The notes beneath the pieces were generated by a model. It had not been told where the DNA came from, did not search any database, and saw only the letters and a program-made list of their open reading frames with translations. From Octopus sinensis (taxonomy: Eukaryota): DNA of 64,000 nt. This document shows positions 15,260-42,765 of the stretch, piece by piece (positions within the stretch are counted from its first letter, which is position 1; every line of letters starts with the position of its first letter). Where the stretch lies: positions 65,224,001-65,288,000 of the forward strand of contig NC_043010.1 of assembly GCF_006345805.1 (NCBI RefSeq), written 5' to 3'. Both the position numbers and the translations under genes were made by a program.

Positions 15260-16140
15260 CACACATACCGCCTTCTCTTGCACTTTTTCTTCACCCATTC
15301 CCTTCTTGTCAGTTCAATATGTGACCGCGTGTGTATCGTTGGCGATTCTCTTTCTCCGTCTTCCCATCCTTGGACCTTTCCTTTTTCTATGTTTCTGACG
15401 AAGAGTTCCGCTCGAAACGTTAAATCCTCCTTACTTCTTTCCTTTCCTGGGTGTCCAATAACACTACACCTGTTCCACGTCCTCTCGTTGTTGTGTTTTC
15501 TCTTTGTTCATGTTTGGAGTAACTATATATATATAGACAAAAAGAGCCACTCCTAATTCCTTCTTCCTTGACCTTAAACAATACTTAGCCCTACAACACG
15601 CACAGATTAACAGCCACAACCACACACACATACACACACGCACACACACACGTGCTATCATTGCACATATACACACACACGCAGACCTTCGCGCACGCAC
15701 ATATCCACACTCTCTCTGTGTATCTTTCTGTTGAAGAGCGTAGGCTCGAAACGTTAAAGACTTGTTTTATTTATATTTCCTGAGCGCCATACTAATACAA
15801 TTGTTCGTTTGTTTTCCACCTGCCTTCGTCTTTTGTTTATTTTCATAAAGCTTCCCCTTACACACACATACCTCGTCTTGCACTCTCCCGTCTTTGAAAG
15901 AACTTTTATTCTCCCATTTTTCCTTCCGATTATTCAAAATGTGACCGCGTGTGAACCGTTGGCGATTTTTTCTCCTCCGTCTTCTCTTCTCTGGATCTTT
16001 CGTTTTCCTATGTTTTCTGACGAAGAGCTCCGCTCGAAACGTTAAAACCTCCTTCTTTCCTTCTTTCCTGAGCGTCCAATAATACTATATTTGTTCCACG
16101 TCCTCGCGTTGTTGTGTTTTTTTGTGCTTTCATGATTGGA
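15260..16140 (+). repeat. Cluster of family-C pLTR-like repeats with three minimal hammerhead motifs (15391-15425, 15723-15760, 16012-16048)
   Basis: For example GTTTT CTGACGA A GAGC-TCC-GCTC GAAA CG TT AAAAC; all share the downstream TTCCTG(A/G)G(C/T)G tract. Confidence 0.65.
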
Positions 16141-16141
16141 T

Positions 16142-16224
<83 letters not shown>

Positions 16225-16232
16225 ATATATAC

Positions 16233-16263
<31 letters not shown>

Positions 16264-16280
16264 CATATATATATATATAC

Positions 16281-16342
<62 letters not shown>

Positions 16343-16348
<6 letters not shown>

Positions 16349-17685
16349 GTTATCGCCATACTAATATGGCATTCTTATAAAAACAAGAAAAAAGCTGTCC
16401 GCTTATTAGCTCCATGAGGCCATCGCCTTAAGTTAGCTATTTGATACACAAACTGTATCCATATAACCTTCGAACAAGGGAGGTCAGTCGCTCCACACTA
16501 CTTGACCGGCAGCTACAGACGCGTTTCGGGGTATTGCCCCTTTTCAATGCAGCGTAGCCAGCCAGTAGGTGTCGCTTCCGACAATCTCTGTTCGATGGTT
16601 TTATTTACCTAGTTTCGGTGGAATACATCCACTTGTTTTCAATAATAGAAATATTAAAATAACTAAGTCTCTCTAAAAGAGAACAGCGGCAGCGTTCCCG
16701 GAAAATAATAGTTATCGCCATACTAATATGGCATTCTTATAAAAATAAGAAAAAAGCTGTCCGCTTATTAGCTCCATGAGGCCATCGCCTTAAGTTAGCT
16801 ATTTGATACACAAACTGTATCCATATAACCTTCGAACAAGGGAGGTCAGTCGCTCCACACTACTTGACCGGCAGCTACAGACGCGTTTCGGGTATTGCCC
16901 CTTTTCAATGCAGCGTAGCCAGCCAGTAGGTGTCGCTTCCGACAATCTCTGTTCGATGGTTTTATTTACCTAGTTTCGGTGGAATACATCCACTTGTTTT
17001 CAATAATAGAAATATTAAAATAACTAAGTCTCTCTAAAAGAGAACAGCGGCAGCGTTCCCGGAAAATAATAGTTATCGCCATACTAATATGGCATTCTTA
17101 TAAAAATAAGAAAAAAGCTGTCCGCTTATTAGCTCCATGAGGCCATCGCCTTAAGTTAGCTATTTGATACACAAACTGTATCCATATAACCTTCGAACAA
17201 GGGAGGTCAGTCGCTCCACACTACTTGACCGGCAGCTACAGACGCGTTTCGGGGTATTGCCCCTTTTCAATGCAGGAACGCTGCCGCTGTTCTCTTTTAG
17301 AGAGACTTAGTTATTTTAATATTTCTATTATTGAAAACAAGTGGATGTATTCCACCGAAACTAGGTAAATAAAACCATCGAACAGAGATTGTCGGAAGCG
17401 ACACCTACTGGCTGGCTACGCTGCATTGAAAAGGGGCAATACCCCGAACGCGTCTGTAGCTGCCGGTCAAGTAGTGTGGAGCGACTGACCTCCCTTGTTC
17501 GAAGGTTATATGGATACAGTTTGTGTATCAAATAGCTAACTTAAGGCGATGGCCTCATGGAGCTAATAAGCGGACAGCTTTTTTCTTATTTTTATAAGAA
17601 TGCCATATTAGTATGGCGATAACTATTATTTTCCGGGAACGCTGCCGCTGTTCTCTTTTAGAGAGACTTAGTTATTTTAATATTT
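16343..17685. repeat. 362-bp unit array: ~2.6 head-to-tail copies (starts 16343, 16705, 17066) followed by ~1.1 inverted copies (17275-17685), embedded in (TA)n; retrozyme/PLE pLTR-like
   Basis: Near-identical units differing by isolated substitutions and homopolymer indels; each carries a hammerhead motif. Confidence 0.92.
16498..16568 (-). ncRNA. Type I hammerhead ribozyme, U3-A8 core variant (family A); further copies at 16874-16914(-), 17235-17275(-), 17420-17460(+)
   Basis: Minus strand reads GCTGCA TTGAAAA GGGG-CAATA-CCCC GAAA CGCG TC^ TGTAGC. Stem I extends (GGCTGGC/GCCGGTC, CTAC/GTAG) and stem III is the palindrome ACGCGT. Confidence 0.78.
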
Positions 17686-17700
17686 GTACATATATAATAC

Positions 17701-17767
<67 letters not shown>

Positions 17768-17786
17768 TATAATATATATATTATAC

Positions 17787-17823
<37 letters not shown>

Positions 17824-17831
17824 CTTTTATA

Positions 17832-17922
<91 letters not shown>

Positions 17923-18208
17923 TTGTATGTATTACACATATATAAATGCACGACCTTGCAAACTTTAGTAGCAGTGTAGCCCTCGCTACGAGCAACTCAT
18001 TGAACTGGTGCCTACAATATTTACATACTGACAGGAAGACACGTGATATATACATCATAATTGGGCCCCTAGAAATAAGAGGCCTCTACACAACTACCCC
18101 GTGTGCCCGTAACTTAAAACTGCAATGTTAACATACTGTTGATTTCTTTTTGAAATAATCCTTTTAAGTCTCTCTTCTCGGCTATGATGCTTTAAAGTGT
18201 CCTTAACT

Positions 18209-22789: not shown

Positions 22790-23360
22790 AAGGCGGCAAG
22801 CTGGCAGAAACGTTAGCACACAGGGAAAATGCGTAGCCGTATTTCGTCTCCGTTACGTTCTGAGTTCAAATTCCGCCGAGGTCGACTTTGCCTTTCATTC
22901 TTTTGGGGTCGATAAATTAAGTACCAGTTACACACTGGGATCGATGTAATCGACTCAATCCGTTTGTCTGTCCTTATTTGTTCTCTCTGTGTTTAGCCCC
23001 TTGTGGGTAGTAAACAAATAGCTATTTCGTCTGCCGTGCGTTCTGAGTTCAAATTCTGCCGAGGGTGACTTTACCTTTCATCCTTTCGGCGTCGATTAAA
23101 AGAGTACAAGTTACGCACTGGGGTCGATATAATCGACTCAATTCGTTTGTCTGTCCTTGTTTGTCCTTTGTGTTTAGCCCCTTGTGGGTAGAAAACAAAT
23201 AGGTATTTCGTCTGCCGTTACGTTCTGTGTTCAAATACTGCCGAGGTCGACTTTGCTTTTCATCCTTTAGGGGTCGATTAAATAAGTACCAGTTACGCAC
23301 TGGAGTCGATATAATCGACTGGTCTCCTCCACAAACATTTAGGGCCATGCGCCTACAATA
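22790..23360 (+). mobile_element. tRNA-derived SINE with an internal ~185-bp segment repeated about three times
   Basis: A-box-like AGCTGGCAGAAACGTTAG, B-box-like GAGTTCAAATTCC, repeated GTCGACTTTGCCTTTCATCCTTT..GGGGTCGAT..AAGTACCAG; same family at 33827-34400. Confidence 0.75.
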
Positions 23361-26298: not shown

Positions 26299-26992
26299 TA
26301 TAAATTTAATCTAATAATATTCAATTTAAAATCTTCATTAATCAGTTATTTTGAGGAGAGCAAATTGTACGTCATAATTGTATATTCATCTCGATTTCCC
26401 CAAACAATATTTTCTACAGCAAATATAGAAATGTGTTTTAGAATCCAATGTAAAATAAGTCTGCGCTAAAAATTCAGCCAGATGTAGAATTGAAGAAAAT
26501 TCTTCAAGATGAAAGAGTATCGGTTTCTTTTTTTTTTTTTGCACGAGGTCAGCAGGTTCGGAGAAGGGGGATAGTTGATTACATAGACTCCAATATTCAG
26601 CTGGTACTTATTTTATGGACTCCGAAAAGTAAAGACGAACCCGGCGCCATTTGAACTCAGAACGTAATAGTGAAAGAAGTGTGGTAGCGATTCTGCCAGT
26701 TCGCAGCCTCAAGCTATAGGAATACACTACCTTTGTCGATATCCTTACCAGATGTTTTACGTATATTTTCTTTAGAATTGTTAAGTTTTTGCATTAAAAC
26801 AGTCATTTCCCATTCGGTAAATAAGGGCGATACATAAATAAACGTCTTACAAGGTATACACTGCATTTATGTTATTATGTACAAAAAATGTGGTTTACAT
26901 AAATGTGTGACTGTTTCATAAGTTATACTTTCAAGATACATTATACTAAAATCTTTTTACACTTTATTAATTCTGACATTTATATTTTCCAG

Positions 26993-27251
26993 TTAATATT
27001 GCTCAAGGTCAACTACAAGCAAACAAGTATATATGGAATAAAAGGAACTACAGTCTTCCATAATGGAACTTGTGAAAAAATGAATATATCGATGGCATCC
27101 GACAAAGCAGTTGACGGAAATTTTGATCCTGGAATTACGCATAAATCATGTGCAAGTACTGACTGGGAAAAATATCCATATTGGCAAGTGATGTTTGATA
27201 AACCATACACGATATCCCAACTGAGAATATATAATCGAATGGGAAATAATC
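26993..27251 (+). CDS. Exon 6: N-terminal half of a fucolectin/F5/8-type C (FTP) domain, apparently frameshifted near 27010-27016
   Basis: TTTTCCAG acceptor, C|GTAAGT donor. VNIAQGQ is in the entry frame; KQTS...SDKAVDGN...SCAST..EKYPYWQV.F...ISQLRIYNR is in a shifted frame. Length is 259 bp. Confidence 0.85.
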
Positions 27252-28659
27252 GTAAGTATTGTTAAAAAGTTATTAATGTTGTCGGTTCGTCTCAGTTTAT
27301 CTTGATTCAGCAGGATTATTATCGAAAGTGTTCCAGCCGTGACTCTGTATGACAGTATCGTGCGTTTTGACAGAAAGTTTGTTTTCTAGTTCTAACGATT
27401 CCAGTGGCCGATTAAAAGAATCTTCGTTGGCTCACAATACATTTGTTTATTTATGTTGACACAGTGTATATAAATATTATATAGCAAGTTAAAAGAATAT
27501 TATTATTGTTGATGAAATTTGATTTGTTTTTGATAATGGAAATGAGTTTTGTTTTCTCTTTACTTTGAACATCAGAAGGGACCAACGTGTGATTGATGAA
27601 AACGTTGTACTCTTTTAATAATATGGCGGCTATGACCTCGCCAACAAAATTTCCTTTCGGTCTGTAACACCTCTAATTGCTAGTGCAATACTTCACTTTA
27701 GAGTGTAAGGGTTTTGGTGGCTTTCGTATCTATTTTTATGGTCGCGCCATTATTAAACCGATTGTTTGTAATACAGTATTATAGCAGCCAGAGTTGAATA
27801 TAATGTATTCATATTTAAAAAGAAATGTTCATGCATTTGTGTATAACTACATGTATATGCACACAGGTGCACACGCGCACATACAGATGCATAACTAGAA
27901 AAGCACTCGGAGAGAGCAGATCTTCGCCAAACCAGCAGGAGCAGCACTACGACGTCAACGTTGACGACGACGACCACCACTACCACCATATCACAATCAC
28001 CACAACAACTATCCTACCTCTATCACCAACATCAACAACAGCATTGTCATTGCTTCCACTTCAACCGCATACATCGCCATCAACGTTATCATGACGATTA
28101 CCTTGACAGTCACTTTCACCACCACAACCAGTATAACCACTACAATACCACCATTACGCAACTAACACTATCATCAGCACCACTATTACCACCATCATCT
28201 CAGCGTCACACATAACACCGCTCCTGTCGCCATTATAAACACCGATACTATTTTATCCTCCTCCCAAATTTATCTCGATCATCGCCATCATCAACACTGT
28301 CTCTTCTGTCACCACAATCACCGTCAAAACTTCGATCATCACAATCAGTTTCTTTACACCGTGAAAATTCCATTATCCGATACTCATGGGACACAGCGGC
28401 GGTGGAGGGAGCAAAGCCTGAGTTTTTCAGTCGATCCTAATAGTCAAGGCTTGTCATGTCATCATCCGCAGACCTCCACCAATTTTAAGATAGATGCGCC
28501 AGTAAAATTTCCTAATAGAGAAACGAAAATAAACTTTGGAAACAGCAACGCCACCATACGTTACGTGAAATCGATGAACGTGTTTTCAAGGGGGATAATC
28601 AAAGAACGTAACCTTGTAATACGTCATGTAATGTAAATATAACAAATTAAAAATCCTTC

Positions 28660-33826: not shown

Positions 33827-34400
33827 AGGAGGTGAGCTGGCAGAATCGTTAGGACGCTGAACCAAATGCTTAGCGGTATTTCGTCTGCCGCTACGTTCTG
33901 AGTTCAAATTCCCCCGAGGTCGACTTTGCCTTTCATCCTTTTGGGGTCGATAAATTAAGTACCAGTTACACACTGGGGTCGATGTAATCGACTTAATACC
34001 TATGTCTGTCCTTGTTTGTCCCTTCTGTGTTTAGCCCCTTGTGGGTAGTAAAGAAATAGGTATTTCGCCTGTCGCTATTTTCTCAGTCCAAATTCCGCCG
34101 AGGTCGACTTTGCCTTTCATCTTTTCAGAGTCGATTAAACAAGTACCAGTTACGCATTGGTGTCGATATAATCGACTTAATCCGTTTGTCTGTCCTTGTT
34201 TGTCCTCTCTGTGTTTAGCCCCTTGTGGGTAGTAAAGAAATAGGTATTTAGCCTGTTACTAAGTTCTAAATTTAAATTCCGCTGAGGGGACATTGCCTTT
34301 CATCTTTTCGAGGTCGATAAATTAATTACACTTGAAACGCTGGGGTCGATGTAATAGACTCATCCCTTCCCCCAAAATAGTTGCCCTTGTGCCAAAATTT
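33827..34400 (+). mobile_element. tRNA-derived SINE (same family as 22790-23360) with internal tandem repeats and an (ATT)n tail
   Basis: Direct sequence similarity to 22790-23360. Confidence 0.75.
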
Positions 34401-34464: not shown

Positions 34465-34555
<91 letters not shown>

Positions 34556-34569
34556 TGTTGTTGTTGTTG

Positions 34570-35720
34570 TTGTTGTCCATTTAAAACGGGTTTGAATTTG
34601 TCAATGAAATTCTTTTCTCTGCCTTTTCTCTCGACTTCGCTTGAGATGTGTAATTTGTAGAATAGGAATATTATAAACATTTTCTGACTACATGCAGCCA
34701 GAAGGTTGCTTACAGGATCCCTTATTTGCTGTCGGTGCACATGTGAACGTTCCGATAGTGCATTCCCAGTCTGACCGACGTTTATTCCTTCCCAATTCGG
34801 GCATTTGATGCAGTAAACTAGCAAACTTGCACAAAGGAACGAATTAAAGGATATAATCACGGATCTATTTCGTTTTGGGATTTGGTTTGCAAGATTCTTT
34901 ATATGAGTTCGTGTGTTGAAGCATATTTAGTTGTGTCTGAGGAGATCCATTTTCTTTTGTGCCTTATAATGTAACACACTCACCGGTAAAATTTCCAATC
35001 ATTTCTTATTTTTATTTTCCTAAAATTTTCGTTGCGTCTTGCAAAATTTTCAATTGTCTTGAAGAATATTGAAAAGGTTGCAAGACGCAACGAAACTTTT
35101 AGGAAAATAAAAATTTCGGGAAAATAAAAATAAGAAATAATTGGAAATTTTACTGGTGAGTGTGTTACATTATAAAGCACAAAAAGAAAATGACTCTCCT
35201 CAGACACAACAGAATCACAGATCTAGCTTTGATTCTAAGTAAAAGACAGACGAAAGCTTGACACACTTGTTAACAAAGGCAAAGTTTGAGCTAAACAACA
35301 ATGATGATTCATTCGTTGTATCCAAATGCAATGGTAATCGAAGAATATTTGTCAATGCAAATAGGAACTACAAAAGCAGATATTTAATTTATTGCATCAG
35401 ATGACCGAATTGTGAAGAGAAATACGTTGGTCAGACTGGAATGAATTATCGGAACGCAAACATAAGTACCAACAACAAATCAGAGACCCTGATGCCTATC
35501 AGACCCCTTTAAGCAACATTCTAGCAACATGTGGTCAGAAAATGTGTATAATGTGAATAATTCTACAAACTACACAACTCAAGTGATGGTGTTGGTAGTG
35601 TTACGCATATTAACGTTGATTTGATTGAAATCTAAAATTTCTGGAAAATTGTAGGAATCGTAGCAAGAGAATTCAATGAAAAGAGGGATGTTATTGACAA
35701 CATTCTTCAATACAGCCAAA
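34570..35720. mobile_element. Two divergent, oppositely oriented PLE GIY-YIG endonuclease remnants (34570-34860 on -, ~35340-35720 on +) either side of a fold-back repeat
   Basis: Minus: LVYCIKCPNWEGINVGQTGNALSER..VHRQQIRDP. Plus: LIYCIR*PNCEEKYVGQTG...QQQIRDP. Confidence 0.72.
34930..35210. repeat. ~280-bp fold-back (inverted repeat)
   Basis: GTTGTGTCTGAGGAG...GTTGCGTCTTGCAA is reverse-complemented by TTGCAAGACGCAAC...CTCCTCAGACACAAC. Confidence 0.85.
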
Positions 35721-36329: not shown

Positions 36330-37805
36330 GGATCAAAATAGTTTGATTCAAATTCCTTGGTACTCTAGAGTTTCAAGCACGATGTTAGTCGTCAGCCATT
36401 TTGAATTTGAATGACAAAAGTTGATTATTATTAGTGTAGGGTGGACTGCGATTGGTCGAGGAAGGTCATGCGGTGTCGTGTTTTGATGTTGGTATACGGG
36501 TAACAGTTAGTTGGAAAATACCGCAAGGTGAACAGGAAATTGACCACGTGGAGGGCAGGAAATAGACTAGAAGTCAGTCAGGTTGTTGGCGGTTAGTAAG
36601 AAGTGGCGGCATGTGCAAGTATATAGTTCTATAAGTTGGTGTGTAGAAGCGTTCATATAGTTTTGTGTACATGGGTATATTGATGCGTGAGAGCACATTT
36701 GTACATAGGCGCACACGCGCACATTTGCACACACACATACACGTGCGTGCTTAAACAAACACGTATGCACATACACACGCATATGTACACACACATCTAA
36801 CCGCACGCATCCTCAGACGTAAAAATGCACCCTCACATCCCCATCCCCATCCCCAACCTGCTACTTCCTAAACACTACCACATTCCCTTCAGAAGGATCT
36901 TCTGTCTCAAGGGTCGTAGTATAGAGAGCAACTCTTACTCCATCCGATGGCCTTACTAGGTACTATACGGGTATGACAGCTACTGACTCCAAGGGAACAT
37001 ACTCCCTGTATATGCACTCGTTCAGATCCAGGGACAGTGGGAACTCTACTTCTCTGTCTGTTTTTCTCTGGAGACTCCGTGATCTCCGAGATGAAATACC
37101 CAGCATTAAGGTGACTACTGTCGATGTAGCCCCACCATATTCACCCGGCGCCCCCATTAGCCAGCTCTGCCTCGGTAAAAACCTGCATATCCTCCAGGAA
37201 CCCTCAGTATCTATAAAGAAAGAAATACGATTCATCGTATTGTTGCCAGGAGAGATATTCATTTCTGGTAAATTTCAGCCCTCTGACAGCCGACAACCTG
37301 GATATACCACTTTACCAACAACTGCTACCTTGTATCGCCTGTATCAAGGTCACCATTACCAATCAACCCTATGAGCAGGGCAGCCATTTACAAATTCCCA
37401 ACCTTTGCCAACTCTCACCACATTCCAACTCCAATACTTATCAATTCCCAGTGCTTTCCAATCTCCGACGCTTGTTTTACGTCTATATATGACGCATCTA
37501 CATGAGCGCATCTACACACCCACATGGAGAGCTATAGACTTGTGCATGCCACCACTTCCTCCTCCCGGCCAACAACGTGACCGACTTCTTGTCTATTTCC
37601 TGCCCTCCACATGGTCAATTTCCTGTTCGCCAAGTCGTATTTTCCAGCTAACTGTTACACATTAACTAATATCAAATCACGAGACCAATTGCAGCCCATC
37701 TCACGGTAATAGCGATCGACTTGCCATTCAAATTCAAAATGGCTGACTAGTAACGTGGTTAGAATTCAAGAGTACCAACGAATTTGAATCAAGCTCTTTT
37801 GGTCC
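36330..37805. mobile_element. PLE-like remnant bounded by diverged inverted repeats (~36330-36660 vs ~37500-37805), each with a decayed hammerhead (family D)
   Basis: 36346-36412(-) reads ATTCAAATTC AAAA TGG CTGACGA ... GAAA CTCTAGAG TA CCA AG GAATTTGAAT; a decayed copy lies at 37726-37789(+). Confidence 0.6.
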
Positions 37806-38373: not shown

Positions 38374-41300
38374 TGTCCTTTGTCTCCACCATCTACCGTG
38401 GCTATTTATAGACCCAAAGAACATGAATTCTTTAACCACCCATTCTCCAACACAATGGAGTGTTGATGGTGGCTGTGGCTACACATTGAAGATGATGATG
38501 GTGATGGTGATGTTGCTGATGATGGTGATGGTGGTGAAGATGATAGTAATAACAATAATAACTGACAGATCCCGTCTTTTTCCCTTTCTTTTCGTTTCCT
38601 TCTCCGTATTTTATTCTCATTATTTCGAACTAATACAGACACAGTAAGCCTTGAAGAAAGGAAGAGGAGGAAAGGAGAAAAAAAAAAAAATGTCCGGAGA
38701 TAAAACTATCAACAAAAAAAATACAGACGAATATAGATCTGCTAGTCTTAAGAAGCGGCGCTATGAGCAATGCTTACATGTAGTGAACCCTAAACTGACA
38801 GATCCATCTCCTAATATAAGAATGGATGCTCGTCATGCTTCAAGGTCAACAAATCAAACAATAAACCGCATTGGTCGTTGCGCGGATTACAAAAGACCAC
38901 GTACCCGAAAATTGAACCAAATCCTGATTGAAAAATCAGTTACTGGATCAAATCTTCCCAACACACAGGAGCTGGACGAACCCCACAACCGGAATATTCC
39001 AACAGATGGCCATCCATGCTCATCACCAAATAATCAAAAGAAAAAGAAGGAAAAATGGTCTAGGGAAGATAATAAAGAAGTTCTCGAGGCCTTCTACCAT
39101 GCCATATATTTCCCCACAGATAAGTCTAGCACTGTACAAGCATACTTAAACTGGAGACAGAAACACCCTGAAGTAAGACCCTACATAGACAGTAACAAGC
39201 TTGCCAATGTTAGAAGAAACATTATAAAAAAGAAATTACTGACTGAAGTAGAGATTGATCAGGTTAGACAAGCAATATCGGATAAAATGAACGAAGCTGC
39301 AGCTAGAGAAGATAATACAGAGGAAATGATTATAGACCAGCCCAGGGCGGATAAAAACGAAGAGAGGATTGAAAGAGTTAGTATAAGTGATAGGCAAAGT
39401 GAAATACGCCCTGAACCAATCATAAACACTAAGACAGATGAGCATCAAATAGATAAAGAAAGTCACACAAATATTGACCCAACAGAACTACATGAGCTAA
39501 AAAATCAAATCATGATTGAATGGCTGAAAATTAAAGAAACCAGCATGGATGAGCGTGATACACTTCCTAAAATCCGCAACTCTAACCAAAACATGAAAAT
39601 AATCGGTAAAATCCGGCTTGCACTTAAGGATATAATTTCAGTTAATGATGTTGATATCACAAACCTCAACCACCTATACTATGCATCCGCGAAAATCTCA
39701 ACGATCCTATGTGGTGTAAAGATTAGAAAACGGCAACAGTCCCACAAAAAGCCTTCTTGGCAAGAGCGTCTGCAACAACAAATTAAAGTATTTAGATCTG
39801 ACATTGAATATTTGAAAAACCTTAAGGCTCACAAGACTACCAAACCTACAAAAACCCCAAAATTACTGAAAAAATACAATATGAAAACTATACTTGATAT
39901 TGATGCCACCATAGAAACCATCAAACAAAAGGTATCTGCCAAAGCTACCCGCATAGCGAGGTATGAAAAGCGTGTTAGATTTTTCAAGGACAACAACATG
40001 TTCAAAAATAACACCAAGAATTTTTACAGGAAGATAGGAAAAACAGCGTTTACTGCAGGGTCTGTACCATCAAAAGAAGAAGTGCAGAGATTTTGGAATA
40101 AAATCTGGGCAGAAGAAAAAACACACAACGAAAAGGCCCCCTGGATTGACAGAATATCTACAGAACTGGATCCCTTAGAAGAGCAAAAGTGGGAGGGTGT
40201 CAAGGTAGAAGATATAAGATCTGCTCTCAGGAGGTCAAGCAAATGGAAGTCTCCAGGAAAGGATAAAATTCCTAACTTCTGGCTGAATGCCTTCCCAGAG
40301 AGCCATGAACTGCTAACAGAACTGTACAATGATGTTCTGCAACACCCTAGTAGGATGCCTCCTTGGCTAGTTAATGGGTTAACATTCCTGCTTCCAAAAA
40401 GTGAAGAAACAAATGAACCAAAAAACTATAGACCCATAACCTGCTTAACAACTATGTACAAAACTCTAACATCTGTCCTGACGGAATATACCTATAGTTT
40501 TTTAACAGACAGCAGCATATTCTCTAATGAACAGAAAGGATGTAAACGTGGATCCTACGGCTGTAAAGACCAACTACTCATCAATAAGATGATCTTAGAA
40601 GATTGTCACAAACGACACAAAAACTTATCAATAGCCTGGATAGACTATAAAAAGGCATTTGATAGCCTACCACATAGCTGGATTAGGAAATGCCTTGAAA
40701 TGTATAAGATAGCACCAACTCTGCGAAACTTCTTGACTGTAAGTATGAGATCATGGAGAACCACACTAACTCTGAACAGTGACAGTGAATCCCTAAATGC
40801 TGGTGATGTAAAAATTTCGTGTGGCATTTTCCAGGGTGACTCACTGTCACCACTCCTCTTTTGTTTATCCTTAATACCTCTCTCAAAGCTGCTCAATGAC
40901 GCGCAGTACGGGTATAAAATGTTTGATAAAAATATAAATCATCTCGTTTACATGGATGATTTAAAGCTTTTTGCAAAAAATGATCAACAACTCAAGGGCT
41001 TACTAGCGATAGTCAAACAATTCAGTGACGACATCAGAATGCAATTCGGCCTCGATAAATGTGCAAAGGCTACCTTTATCAAAGGAAAAATGACAGAAAC
41101 ATCTAACGTTAACCTTGACCAACAGAATGTCATAAAAGAACTAGACCCAGCGGAGAGCTACAAGTACCTAGGGGTAATTGAAGGGAACGGAATAAGGCAT
41201 TCAGAGATGAAGGAAAGGATCAGGAGAGAATGCTATCGAAGAGTGAGAGCAATACTCAAGACAGAGCTGAATGCAAGAAACAGGATCGAAGCAATCAATG

Positions 41301-42765
41301 CATTAGCTATACCAGTCGTGACTTACAGTTTCAATATTGTTAACTGGTCAATTACTGAAATATGTCAGCTCGACAGAAAAATAAGGAAACTGTTGACAAT
41401 GCATAGAATGCACCACCCTAAGGCAGATACAGAACGACTCTATCTGCCAAGAAAAGAGGGAGGCCGTGGTCTTTTGCAACTGGCAATAACAATGAAGATT
41501 GCTACAATTGGCCTAGACACCTACCTGAAAAACTCTGAGGACTGGATGTTAAAACTTGTCTCAAAACATGAAAACAAGGAAGCATCATACTCAGTCACAA
41601 AACAGGCAAAGGAATATCTAAGTGAATTCCGAATACAACCAATTTCGGAATTAGAGATAGACATACAAGGAACAAGCACAGAAAAAGCTAGGCGCATGAA
41701 AACCCGTGCCAAAACTGCGGCCTTAGATATTCTGAATAATAAATGGCAAGAAAAACCTCTCTACGGCAAATACCCAAAGAGAGCGAATAATGCAGATATC
41801 GACAAAGCCCTGACCCATCAATGGCTAATGGCCTCTGGCTTAAAATCTGAAACAGAGGGGTTTATCATAGCAGCTCAAGATCAATGCCTACCAACAAGAA
41901 ACTACCAGGCCAACATATTAAAGATCAGAAGCAGTCCAACGTGTCGTGTATGCAAGCAACAAAATGAAACCATTGACCATGTGGTCTCCAAGTGCAGTCT
42001 TCTAGCGCCTACAGAGTATCTCAACAGGCACGATAGAGCTGCACAATATATTCACTGGGTAATCTGTAAAAACCTGGATTTGCCCCATGAAAAAAACTGG
42101 TGGGAACACAAACCAACCCCAGTGCTTGAAAATGACCACATCTCACTCCTCTGGAACTTCACCATTCAAACTGACAGGAAGATAGATGCAAATAGGCCAG
42201 ACATCATATTGAAAGACTTCAAACAAAGAACATGCCTCCTCATTGATATGACTGTCCCAATCGATATAAACGTATCTGTCAGGACCTACCAAAAACTGAG
42301 CAAATATAAAGATCTTGAAATAGAAATCAGCAAAATGTGGAAGCTGAAGACTAAAACAATACCTGTTGTCATAGGTGCCCTGGGAATGATAGCAAAAGGG
42401 GCTGATAGCTACCTAACTCAGATACCAGGAAACCCAAAAATGGCAGAAGTTCAAAAGATAGTGCTCATGGGAACTGCTCATATCCTACGCAAAATACTCT
42501 CTATGTAACCTCAAGGTTTAAAACAACCATAATTTTCGGTTTAAAGAGGAAGGGGGAAAAAAAAGGAAAAAAAAAGAAAAAGGAAAAAAAAAACCCCTTT
42601 TTTTTTTTTTTTTTTTAAACATTCATTAGTACAACATCCCCACCCCCCAAATATATGGCACACTAGGCATAACAACAACATGAACTTCCAACCCTGTTGT
42701 CTCTTGAGGTCTCTGGGTGAGACTTGGAGCCAACTTGTACAAATATAAAGCAAAAGTCAAACATA

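What the first reader, a model, noticed from the sequence alone, without database searches (positions are those of the whole stretch)
16343..17685. Young 362-bp tandem array in which every unit carries a U3-A8 variant hammerhead ribozyme: candidate retrozyme / circular-RNA element
Seen: about 2.6 near-identical non-coding units followed by an inverted ~1.1 unit, inserted in (TA)n. Each unit folds as a type I hammerhead: GCTGCA-UUGAAAA-GGGG(CAAUA)CCCC-GAAA-CGCG-UC^UGUAGC, with an extended bulged stem I. Known: the hammerhead C3-G8 tertiary pair tolerates a U3-A8 swap. Minimal hammerheads with palindromic stem III (here ACGCGU) occur in Penelope pLTRs and metazoan non-LTR retrozymes and cleave as dimers. 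Inferred: a minus-strand multimeric transcript would self-cleave between 16518 and 16517, and at the equivalent site in each unit, releasing ~362-nt monomers that could circularise and be copied by a PLE RT in trans. A CUGANGA-only search would miss this motif.
Basis: partly seen in the sequence, partly recalled or inferred. Interest (0 to 1): 0.88.

Follow-up and report, generated by a model that had tools for sequence, protein, structure and literature searches.

The report
Penelope-mobilised hammerhead retrozyme, twin-primed
This is one young copy of a small, protein-free jumping repeat with thousands of copies in this animal genome; its RNA carries a predicted self-cutting ribozyme, and nearly every two-armed copy ends at the same pair of sites, likely a record of how the poorly understood Penelope enzymes copy a circular RNA into DNA.

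Summary
The array is real. It is one copy of a young, dispersed, non-coding 362-nt repeat family: a non-LTR retrozyme. The genome holds 1,885 exact matches to its ribozyme motif (control 0).

The U3-A8 type I hammerhead is supported by covariation. Its stem III is a palindrome in every subfamily, and two copies co-fold as a double hammerhead. U3-A8 cores and retrozymes are both published. 'Every unit' is too strong: only unit 1 is intact.

(1) The inverted arm is the Penelope signature. Of 83 two-armed insertions with assignable ends, 80 end once at site S1 and once at S2, 63 nt further on.
(2) Reverse transcription shows no excess of stops at the ribozyme cut, which fits a circular template.
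(3) A weak U2-promoter-like motif predicts a start at q127.
(4) An L1/Tx1-type LINE inserts exactly there (30 of 30 loci, 17-bp duplication). This scan noted such targeting before, in this and other genomes.

No autonomous Penelope partner was found. Cleavage, circles and expression are untested.

The parts
16343..17275 (-). S1 arm: 2.6 head-to-tail units (q = position in window:16343-16704:-; unit 1 16343-16704, unit 2 16705-17065, unit 3 17066-17275, 5'-truncated at q153). RNA-sense 3' end at q362 = 16343
17275..17688 (+). S2 arm: inverted 414 nt, q7-362 followed by the tail q1-59; its last bases before the (TA)n are degenerate
17275..17275 (.). Inversion joint with a 1-nt overlap between the two 5'-truncated arms
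16505..16562 (-). Intact type I hammerhead with U3-A8 core, 4-bp stem II, palindromic stem III and bulged extended stem I; predicted cut between 16518 and 16517 (q187^188)
16867..16923 (-). Hammerhead of unit 2; stem II shortened to 3 bp by a one-base loss (real or assembly error); predicted cut 16880/16879
17228..17275 (-). Hammerhead of unit 3; core intact but the 5' strand of stem I is truncated by the inversion
17411..17467 (+). Hammerhead of the inverted unit; one A of GAAA missing, predicted inactive if the base loss is real
16343..16394 (-). S1 domain: two hairpins and the first inferred reverse-transcription start site (q362); 6,168 matches to the terminal hairpin in the genome, control 0
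17630..17688 (+). PLE-type tail (q1-63) ending at the second inferred start site S2
16621..16642 (-). Motif resembling the -55 to -59 element of this genome's U2 genes; candidate internal snRNA-type promoter (also 16982-17003 on -, 17331-17352 on +). Weak score, right position
16563..16579 (-). Empty 17-bp target (q126-142) of the site-specific L1/Tx1-type LINE (also 16924-16940 on -, 17394-17410 on +); begins at the predicted transcription start
16146..16345 (.). (TA)n target, left flank; it is also the 3' flank of an older repeat that carries a canonical hammerhead
17690..17944 (.). (TA)n target, right flank

Best explanation
This is one recent insertion of a dispersed, non-coding 362-nt repeat family whose unit carries a conserved U3-A8 hammerhead motif, likely a non-LTR retrozyme that a Penelope-type enzyme copies in trans from a probably circular RNA. 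Steps: (1, inferred, weak to moderate) an internal snRNA-type promoter starts transcription near q127, just 5' of the ribozyme. (2, predicted) two successive hammerheads pair through palindromic stem III and cut at q187^188, releasing a 362-nt monomer that a host ligase would close. (3, the ends are shown, the mechanism is inferred) a Penelope GIY-YIG/RT, probably a dimer and probably Hydra-like, nicks both strands of (TA)n and primes one strand at S1 (q362) and the other at S2 (63 nt further on). (4, inferred) both cDNAs run on round the template, stop at random or at helices, and are joined head to head by microhomology, giving the short tandem plus inverted arm. (5, shown) a separate L1/Tx1-type LINE uses q126-142 as its fixed landing site and leaves the hammerhead whole. 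Odds: PLE-mobilised retrozyme about 0.9; active dimeric cleavage about 0.75; circle as template about 0.6; snRNA-type promoter about 0.55; Hydra-clade partner about 0.5.
For: Family: 812 candidates, 40 scored, top loci 97-100% identical; 1,885 exact ribozyme-motif matches and 6,168 S1-hairpin matches, reversed controls 0; sister subfamilies at about 84% and 75%. Ribozyme: on 15 haplotypes 96.2% of cells paired, 11 double changes, 0 of 500 shuffles as high, slid controls 29-54% paired; position 7 takes all four bases while U3 and A8 stay; stem III ACGCGU 267, ACAUGU 15, ACGUCGU 15, ACGU 5, ACUAGU 5 of 325 motif hits, overlapping loci included; two copies co-fold as a double hammerhead at -62.7 versus 2 x -28.3 kcal/mol. 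Ends: 94 two-armed insertions in 139 locus records: 80 S1/S2, 3 S1/S1, 0 S2/S2, 11 unassignable (one duplicated locus counted twice); P about 1e-20 against independent choice. The genome's young Hydra-clade PLE has a 74-nt tail and, by eye, the same one-of-each ends in 8 of 8 loci of 30 where both ends were visible. Joints: 28 of 43 overlap by 2 nt or more, 6 by 0-1, 9 have inserted bases; chance 17%. Template: 60 of 80 S1 arms exceed the 175 nt a cleaved linear monomer allows; stops at the cut 1 vs 1.17 and 1 vs 0.72 expected, at the predicted start 1 vs 1.04 and 1 vs 0.64. Promoter: 28 of 30 U2 loci share a motif at -55 to -59; its best sense match lies at the matching place in 4 of 5 units. 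In vitro precedent: a PLE nicks and extends both strands from two internal sites that define the tail (PMC11167929).
Against: No PLE with a pLTR homologous to the unit was found: none in 3 Hydra and 8 Neptune-type long-ORF loci, none in 119 PLE-related loci apart from 3 unrelated insertions of the unit, none in 30 loci of a second Hydra family. The ribozyme counts come from searches that required the U3-A8 core, so invariance of that pair is partly built in; the haplotypes are related, and the count of pairs with double changes was not above shuffles (44 of 500). No pile-up at the cut is also what an inactive ribozyme with long read-through transcripts would give; in vitro the Anolis PLE did not need its hammerhead (PMC11167929), and 8 of 9 Xenopus retrozyme dimers did not cleave (bioRxiv 10.64898/2026.07.22.740005). 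Promoter score alone is not significant for this subfamily (p 0.26; 0.04 in the oldest), and one subfamily's best site lies elsewhere. Locus-private variants lie on both arms in only 5 of 56 two-armed loci; 63 of 76 scored variants are single-unit, so a single template molecule is not shown. One LINE-bearing locus looks S2/S2 (L244). The first locus set was selected for a whole unit, which inflates arm length.
Confidence: 0.72

Rival explanations
1. A PLE-mobilised repeat copied from long uncleaved linear read-through transcripts of a few master arrays, or by template jumping. The hammerhead is weak or serves another step, and no circle is involved.
For: Arrays of 6 to 9 or more units exist. 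No stop excess at the cut. Hammerhead mutants did not alter insertion in vitro and no reads ended at the cut in Anolis (PMC11167929). Arrays with 2- and 4-unit higher-order patterns show that units can also multiply at DNA level (L319, L321).
Against: The hammerhead, including a stem III that can pair only between copies, is kept with compensatory changes over 25% divergence. No stop excess at the predicted transcript start, where linear transcripts from unit promoters would end. The cut junction is exact in 110 of 118 copies, which argues against error-prone jumping.
Confidence: 0.17
2. The units are only truncated pLTRs of an autonomous PLE that I did not find; there is no independent non-autonomous element.
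For: PLE insertions are mostly 5'-truncated pLTR pieces with inverted arms (PMC8557442, PMC3846280). Only the top 150 of about 18,800 Hydra-type and 20,400 Neptune-type candidates were scored.
Against: Upstream of a unit there is another unit, not an ORF, wherever arms exceed one unit. The only recurrent coding sequence found inside the arrays is the LINE and its ORF1-only relatives. One Hydra-endonuclease junction (L274) was unique among 30 copies of that family.
Confidence: 0.06
3. The repeat is mobilised by the L1/Tx1-type LINE found inside it, or is an ordinary satellite spread at DNA level with a chance hammerhead-like motif.
For: The LINE is found almost only inside the unit. Some arrays show DNA-level higher-order repeats.
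Against: The LINE makes a 17-bp duplication at a fixed non-TA site and is nearly always full length, whereas the repeat inserts in (TA)n with two fixed ends and inverted arms. LINE copies in one array are not monophyletic, so they arrived after the array. Dispersed short arrays, covariation and z of -3 to -10 do not fit chance.
Confidence: 0.05

Closest known systems
Metazoan non-LTR retrozymes (coral, mussel, axolotl; Cervera and de la Pena 2020, PMC7229834, passages seen; Li et al. bioRxiv 10.64898/2026.07.22.740005, parts 1-3 of 5 read)
   Same: Non-coding tandem units of about 350-390 bp (mussel), GC below 45-50% (here 42%), type I hammerhead per unit, stable self-paired fold, dimer-dependent cleavage in some, proposed PLE origin and mobilisation.
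   Different: U3-A8 core. Fixed two-site ends and inverted arms in (TA)n are not mentioned in the passages I saw ('inverted' 0 hits in PMC7229834). No homologous pLTR found here, unlike 24 of 57 Xenopus families. Expression and circles are shown there, untested here.
U3-A8 minimal hammerheads of Schistosoma mansoni Cercyon PLEs (PMC4209133, parts 1-2 of 4 read)
   Same: Same core covariation (about 1,300 hits there); palindromic stem III for dimeric action.
   Different: There minimal motifs, mostly single, with long helix II and short helix I; here a canonical 6-bp helix I with bulged extension and 4-bp helix II in a tandem non-coding unit.
PLE tail and inverted pLTR; Anolis Poseidon PAc in vitro (PMC11167929, parts 1-2 of 4; PMC8557442, passages and section 11; PMC3846280, passages)
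   Same: Two internal RT start sites that define a tail; AT-rich nicking of both strands; tail often at one end only; inverted 5'-truncated arm; (TA)n targets of Hydra, Neptune and Naiad.
   Different: Tail 63 nt rather than 30-40 nt. Both sites end in the same heptamer with a few bases of TA homology. The pairing is nearly obligate (80 of 83) and is seen on a protein-free element. PMC3846280 explained inversions by self-priming on antisense RNA; the fixed S1/S2 pair fits twin priming better.
Target-specific Tx1-clade LINEs: Tx1L in Tx1D, Keno in U2, Tx1-Mar (PMC4494074, passages)
   Same: APE-RT LINE with CCHC ORF1, fixed target in another repeat, tandem insertions sandwiching a TSD, relatives at U2 genes.
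   Different: Target is a hammerhead retrozyme, at its predicted transcription start. A search for 'Tx1' with 'retrozyme' gave 0 papers (one search gave 3 unrelated to this). Kojima's tree lists 'satellites' as targets, which I could not inspect.
Newt satellite 2 with an snRNA-type promoter (Coats et al. 1994; paper not held, seen only as cited in a passage of PMC2220036)
   Same: Hammerhead repeat transcribed from an internal snRNA-type promoter.
   Different: Here the promoter is only a weak motif match at the right distance.

Membership tests
Type I hammerhead ribozyme | Core U4 G5 A6, A9, G12 A13 A14, A15.1-U16.1, H17 with a Watson-Crick 3-8 pair | tested here: met
   Unit 1 sequence; U3-A8 in 15 of 15 haplotypes, N7 free; partly built into the search
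Type I hammerhead ribozyme | Stems I, II, III supported by covariation | tested here: met
   Stem I and distal stem double changes; stem II one-sided only; stem III inner pair GC/AU/UA
Type I hammerhead ribozyme | Self-cleavage | not testable with these tools
   No bench data; contigs cannot show RNA ends
Non-LTR retrozyme | Non-coding tandem unit of 150-450 bp with a type I hammerhead in consecutive units, no LTR/PBS/PPT | tested here: met
   at family level. At this locus only unit 1 is fully intact, so it may fail the 'two complete consecutive hammerheads' rule of the preprint
Non-LTR retrozyme | Dispersed multicopy family | tested here: met
Non-LTR retrozyme | Expressed as linear and circular monomers | not testable with these tools
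   Only contigs were available; a circle junction has the same sequence as the genomic tandem
PLE-mobilised element | Tail at one end, inverted 5'-truncated arm, microsatellite target | tested here: met
PLE-mobilised element | pLTR homology to an autonomous PLE of the same genome | tested here: inconclusive
   None in the families sampled; most PLE candidates were not scored
Autonomous PLE | ORF with RT and GIY-YIG between pLTRs | tested here: not met
   No such ORF in or beside the arrays
Hydra clade (candidate partner, 717-aa ORF) | RWK, DKT, CxCX5C, CxxC and CxH motifs, C-terminal GIY-YIG, (TA)n target | tested here: met
   Motifs read in the translation against section 11 of PMC8557442; partnership with the retrozyme is not shown
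L1/Tx1-type target-specific LINE (the insert, not the finding itself) | ORF1 with CCHC knuckle, ORF2 APE-RT, fixed target with TSD | tested here: met
   Pfam; best PDB match human L1 ORF2p, E 1e-66 over residues 8-874; junctions
Tx1 clade | RT phylogeny with named Tx1 elements | not tested
   No named Tx1 reference came back; the label rests on architecture and recall

The most novel reading that the evidence does not exclude
A protein-free 362-nt circular RNA with its own snRNA-type promoter is reverse-transcribed as a circle by a Penelope dimer that must prime the two target strands at two different fixed sites, one each. That would explain the PLE tail, the inverted arm and the tandem in one step. 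A LINE lineage has specialised on this RNA's transcription start, as its relatives have on U2 genes, and may use the promoter in front and the ribozyme behind to make and trim its own RNA: a three-tier parasite chain with a minimal substrate for reconstituting Penelope transposition.
Probability: 0.35. Interest if true: 0.8.

Novelty: new variant of a known kind. Interest (0 to 1): 0.56.

Why it matters
How Penelope-like elements make their tails and inverted tandems, whether their hammerheads matter, and whether retrozyme circles are real transposition templates are open questions; PMC11167929 and the 2026 preprint both say so. This family gives a very young, tiny, protein-free substrate with thousands of genomic products. 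The near-obligate S1/S2 pairing and the absence of stops at the cut are sharp predictions for an in vitro assay. The LINE that lands at the unit's predicted start adds a target type I did not find in print. The ribozyme variant and the element class are not new.

Tried and rejected
Rfam at E<=10 found no hammerhead. Public runs: no RNA holder listed; runs guessed to be RNA exist only as contigs and cannot show expression, strand or ends, so they are not used for or against expression.

Search for the autonomous partner failed. The young Neptune-type (775-777 aa) and Hydra (717 aa) families share no pLTR sequence with the unit. An old Hydra family from the window gave none. A 24-nt unit stub after a Hydra copy in L091 is a separate insertion in (TA)n. 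The L274 junction to a second Hydra family is a one-off, probably a later insertion with deletion. The 2.1-kb spacing at L095-L098 was an ORF1-only LINE relative, not a PLE.

The idea that q142 is a third RT start was rejected: it is the LINE junction. Mobilisation of LINE-plus-unit as one PLE cargo was judged rare: the LINE reaches the locus edge in 30 of 30 loci and copies in one array differ; L118 may be an exception. The single-template test was weak. Tx1 naming by homolog search and Atlas gave no names. Rfam found nothing at the target of the LINE relative in L427. Coats 1994 was not held.

Rows left out of the end count: duplicate records of one insertion, records replaced by longer ones, and LINE-selected loci, which were read by eye (9 S1/S2, 1 S2/S2-like, 4 single-armed or incomplete, of 14). 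No supplements were read; those of PMC8557442 (Hydra consensus files) and PMC4494074 (Tx1 targets), and Repbase, may already hold the partner or the LINE.

Full report
Coordinates: q is the position in window:16343-16704:- (q362 = 16343). The host is a 2.7-Gb animal genome, probably an octopod. This is an inference: the best named relative of a LINE from this genome is from Argonauta hians, 63% identical.

1. Observation. The tandem (period 361, 2.6 copies, 99%), the 414-nt inverted arm and the (TA)n flanks are as described. Unit 1 carries the hammerhead as written, with the cut at 16518/16517. The other three copies are damaged: a 3-bp stem II in unit 2, a truncated stem I in unit 3, and GAA instead of GAAA in the inverted unit. 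The one-base losses may be assembly errors: only 1 of 20 near-identical LINE copies in this assembly has both ORFs unbroken. The unit folds far better than shuffles (z -7.6; as a circle -5.6, relatives -3.0 to -9.6), and the hammerhead strand folds better than its complement in 5 of 5 units.

2. Family. A search with unit 1 gave 812 candidates; the 40 scored gave 134 matches, the best 100% identical, on most large contigs. Motif searches count 1,885 exact ribozyme motifs and 6,168 terminal hairpins at up to one mismatch, with reversed controls at 0. Sister subfamilies lie at about 84% (44 hits) and 75% (678 hits). Contigs of 7 of 8 public runs hold the 362-nt head-to-tail joint.

3. Ribozyme. 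On 15 haplotypes, 96.2% of cells pair, with 11 double changes (0 of 500 shuffles); the number of pairs with double changes is not above shuffles (44 of 500), and the sequences are related. Position 7 is A, U, C or G while U3 and A8 stay, though the search required them. Stem III is the strongest sign: ACGCGU, ACAUGU, ACUAGU and ACGU are all palindromes that cannot close a loop alone, and ACGUCGU is a near-palindrome. Two copies co-fold as the double hammerhead, 6 kcal/mol below two monomers. The U3-A8 core is published for Schistosoma PLEs (PMC4209133).

4. Ends. The loci share one build: two arms joined head to head, both RNA-sense 3' ends pointing out into (TA)n. Of 94 two-armed insertions in 139 locus records, 80 end once at q362 (S1) and once near q63 (S2), 3 are S1/S1, none S2/S2, and 11 have an unassignable end (one duplicated locus counted twice). 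Independent choice would give about half (P about 1e-20). Fourteen LINE-selected regions read by eye add 9 S1/S2 and one S2/S2-like case. The joints overlap by 2 nt or more in 28 of 43 cases, against 17% by chance. This is the PLE tail and inverted arm (PMC8557442; PMC3846280). In vitro, a PLE starts reverse transcription at two internal sites that bound the tail and extends both strands (PMC11167929). A young Hydra-clade PLE here has a 74-nt tail and the same pairing in 8 of 8 visible cases among 30 loci. I infer twin priming, one site per strand. That tails are often one-sided is known; I did not find the pairing counted.

5. Template. A cleaved linear monomer limits S1 arms to 175 nt and S2 arms to 238 nt; 60 and 48 of 80 are longer (the first locus set was selected for a whole unit). 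There is no excess of 5' stops at the cut or at the predicted start in either of two locus sets (67 and 40 arms), and the cut junction is exact in 110 of 118 copies. A ligated circle fits. Long uncleaved multimers also fit, and remain the main rival. Locus-private variants shared by both arms occur in 5 of 56 loci: compatible with one template, but not proof.

6. Promoter. Of 30 U2 loci, 28 carry a shared motif at -55 to -59. Its best sense match lies at q70-72 in 4 of 5 units, predicting a start at q126-130. The score alone is weak (p 0.26 for this subfamily, 0.04 for the oldest), and the chance of that position is about 1.4%. The segment is the most conserved in the unit, and its hairpin shows no compensatory change and two breaks, as a DNA element would. 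Newt satellite 2 is the precedent (as cited in PMC2220036).

7. The LINE. Two loci ended at q142 with the same flank, which proved to be a 5.34-kb LINE: CCHC ORF1 and APE-RT ORF2, closest in the PDB to human L1 ORF2p, 337 candidates. In 30 of 30 loci its 3' end is followed by q126 onward; in 2 of these only the duplicated target and a second LINE follow. Of 20 full-length copies, all join at q142 and 19 have the target on the 3' side. The 17-bp duplication mostly follows the local G/A variant, and copies within one array are often not each other's closest relatives. ORF1-only relatives sit at the same place in the two older subfamilies. A relative 83% identical in ORF2 ends exactly at +1 of a U2 gene. 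The site is empty at this locus. I found this before the look-up; the scan had already noted it in this genome and others. Tx1 elements that target other repeats are known (PMC4494074); 'Tx1' with 'retrozyme' gave 0 papers. Tx1 membership was not tested by tree.

8. Partner. None was found. Only 150 of about 20,000 candidates per PLE query were scored. A Hydra-type partner is a guess from the long tail and the (TA)n target.

9. Verdict. A real and well-supported non-LTR retrozyme with a known variant core; class and core are published (PMC7229834; preprint). What lifts it is the family-level record of mechanism (obligate end pairing, no stop at the cut) and the LINE that targets its predicted start. 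All catalytic and RNA-level steps are predictions. Papers were seen as stated under Closest known systems; no supplements were read. Interest 0.56; new variant of a known kind.

Noticed in passing
window 15280-15535 and 15900-16145 (+): Two older copies of another repeat with a canonical CUGACGA hammerhead and a similar TAACTAT-(TA)n end; 1,561 candidates. The retrozyme inserted in its TA tail. A third, degenerate core lies near 15730-15760.
   Followed up: partly
L244:2648-8001 and G000:C3:72.50-72.53 Mb (L231-L234): One LINE copy has both ORFs intact (512 and 1140 aa). One retrozyme insertion has all 5 target sites filled, spans 29 kb and keeps its S1/S2 ends.
   Followed up: yes
L121:3331-5040, L122, L118, L200: ORF1-only elements (about 450 aa, CCHC knuckle) at the same target in the older subfamilies.
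   Followed up: partly
L426, L421, L427: LINE relatives at U2 loci: one ends at U2 +1 (83% identical ORF2), one begins downstream of a U2 gene, and one 92% identical copy ends before an unidentified sequence with no Rfam match.
   Followed up: partly
L164-L166 and L251-L258, 3' UTRs: The young Hydra (717 aa) and Neptune-type (775-777 aa) PLEs both seem, by eye, to carry hammerhead-like motifs with a CCGAAGA (U4-to-C) core and palindromic or near-palindromic stem III.
   Followed up: no
L399-L405: A second Hydra-like family (646 candidates) has an Asn-rich linker before the endonuclease, as described for Adineta Penelopes, and by eye a hammerhead with a long stem II.
   Followed up: partly
L319 (G000:C1:28.19 Mb) and L321: Arrays with alternating two-unit and roughly four-unit variant patterns: either dimer templates or later unequal exchange.
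   Followed up: partly
window 22839-23320 and 33875-34360: Two short tandems of a 183-184-bp repeat, 2.6 copies each; it recalls an abundant octopus SINE-like repeat (from memory, not tested).
   Followed up: no
window 34552-34926 (-), 36925-37374 (+), 38648-42508 (+), 26903-27265 (+): Remnants of Neptune-type and Hydra-type endonucleases, an intact 1286-aa RT ORF, and an F5/8 type C domain exon.
   Followed up: partly
coded runs X10, X11, X17, X18, X20 laid; X12-X14, X16, X19 listed only: Runs under seven organism labels hold 84-88% of the unit's sampled words; close relatives or labelling, not resolved.
   Followed up: no
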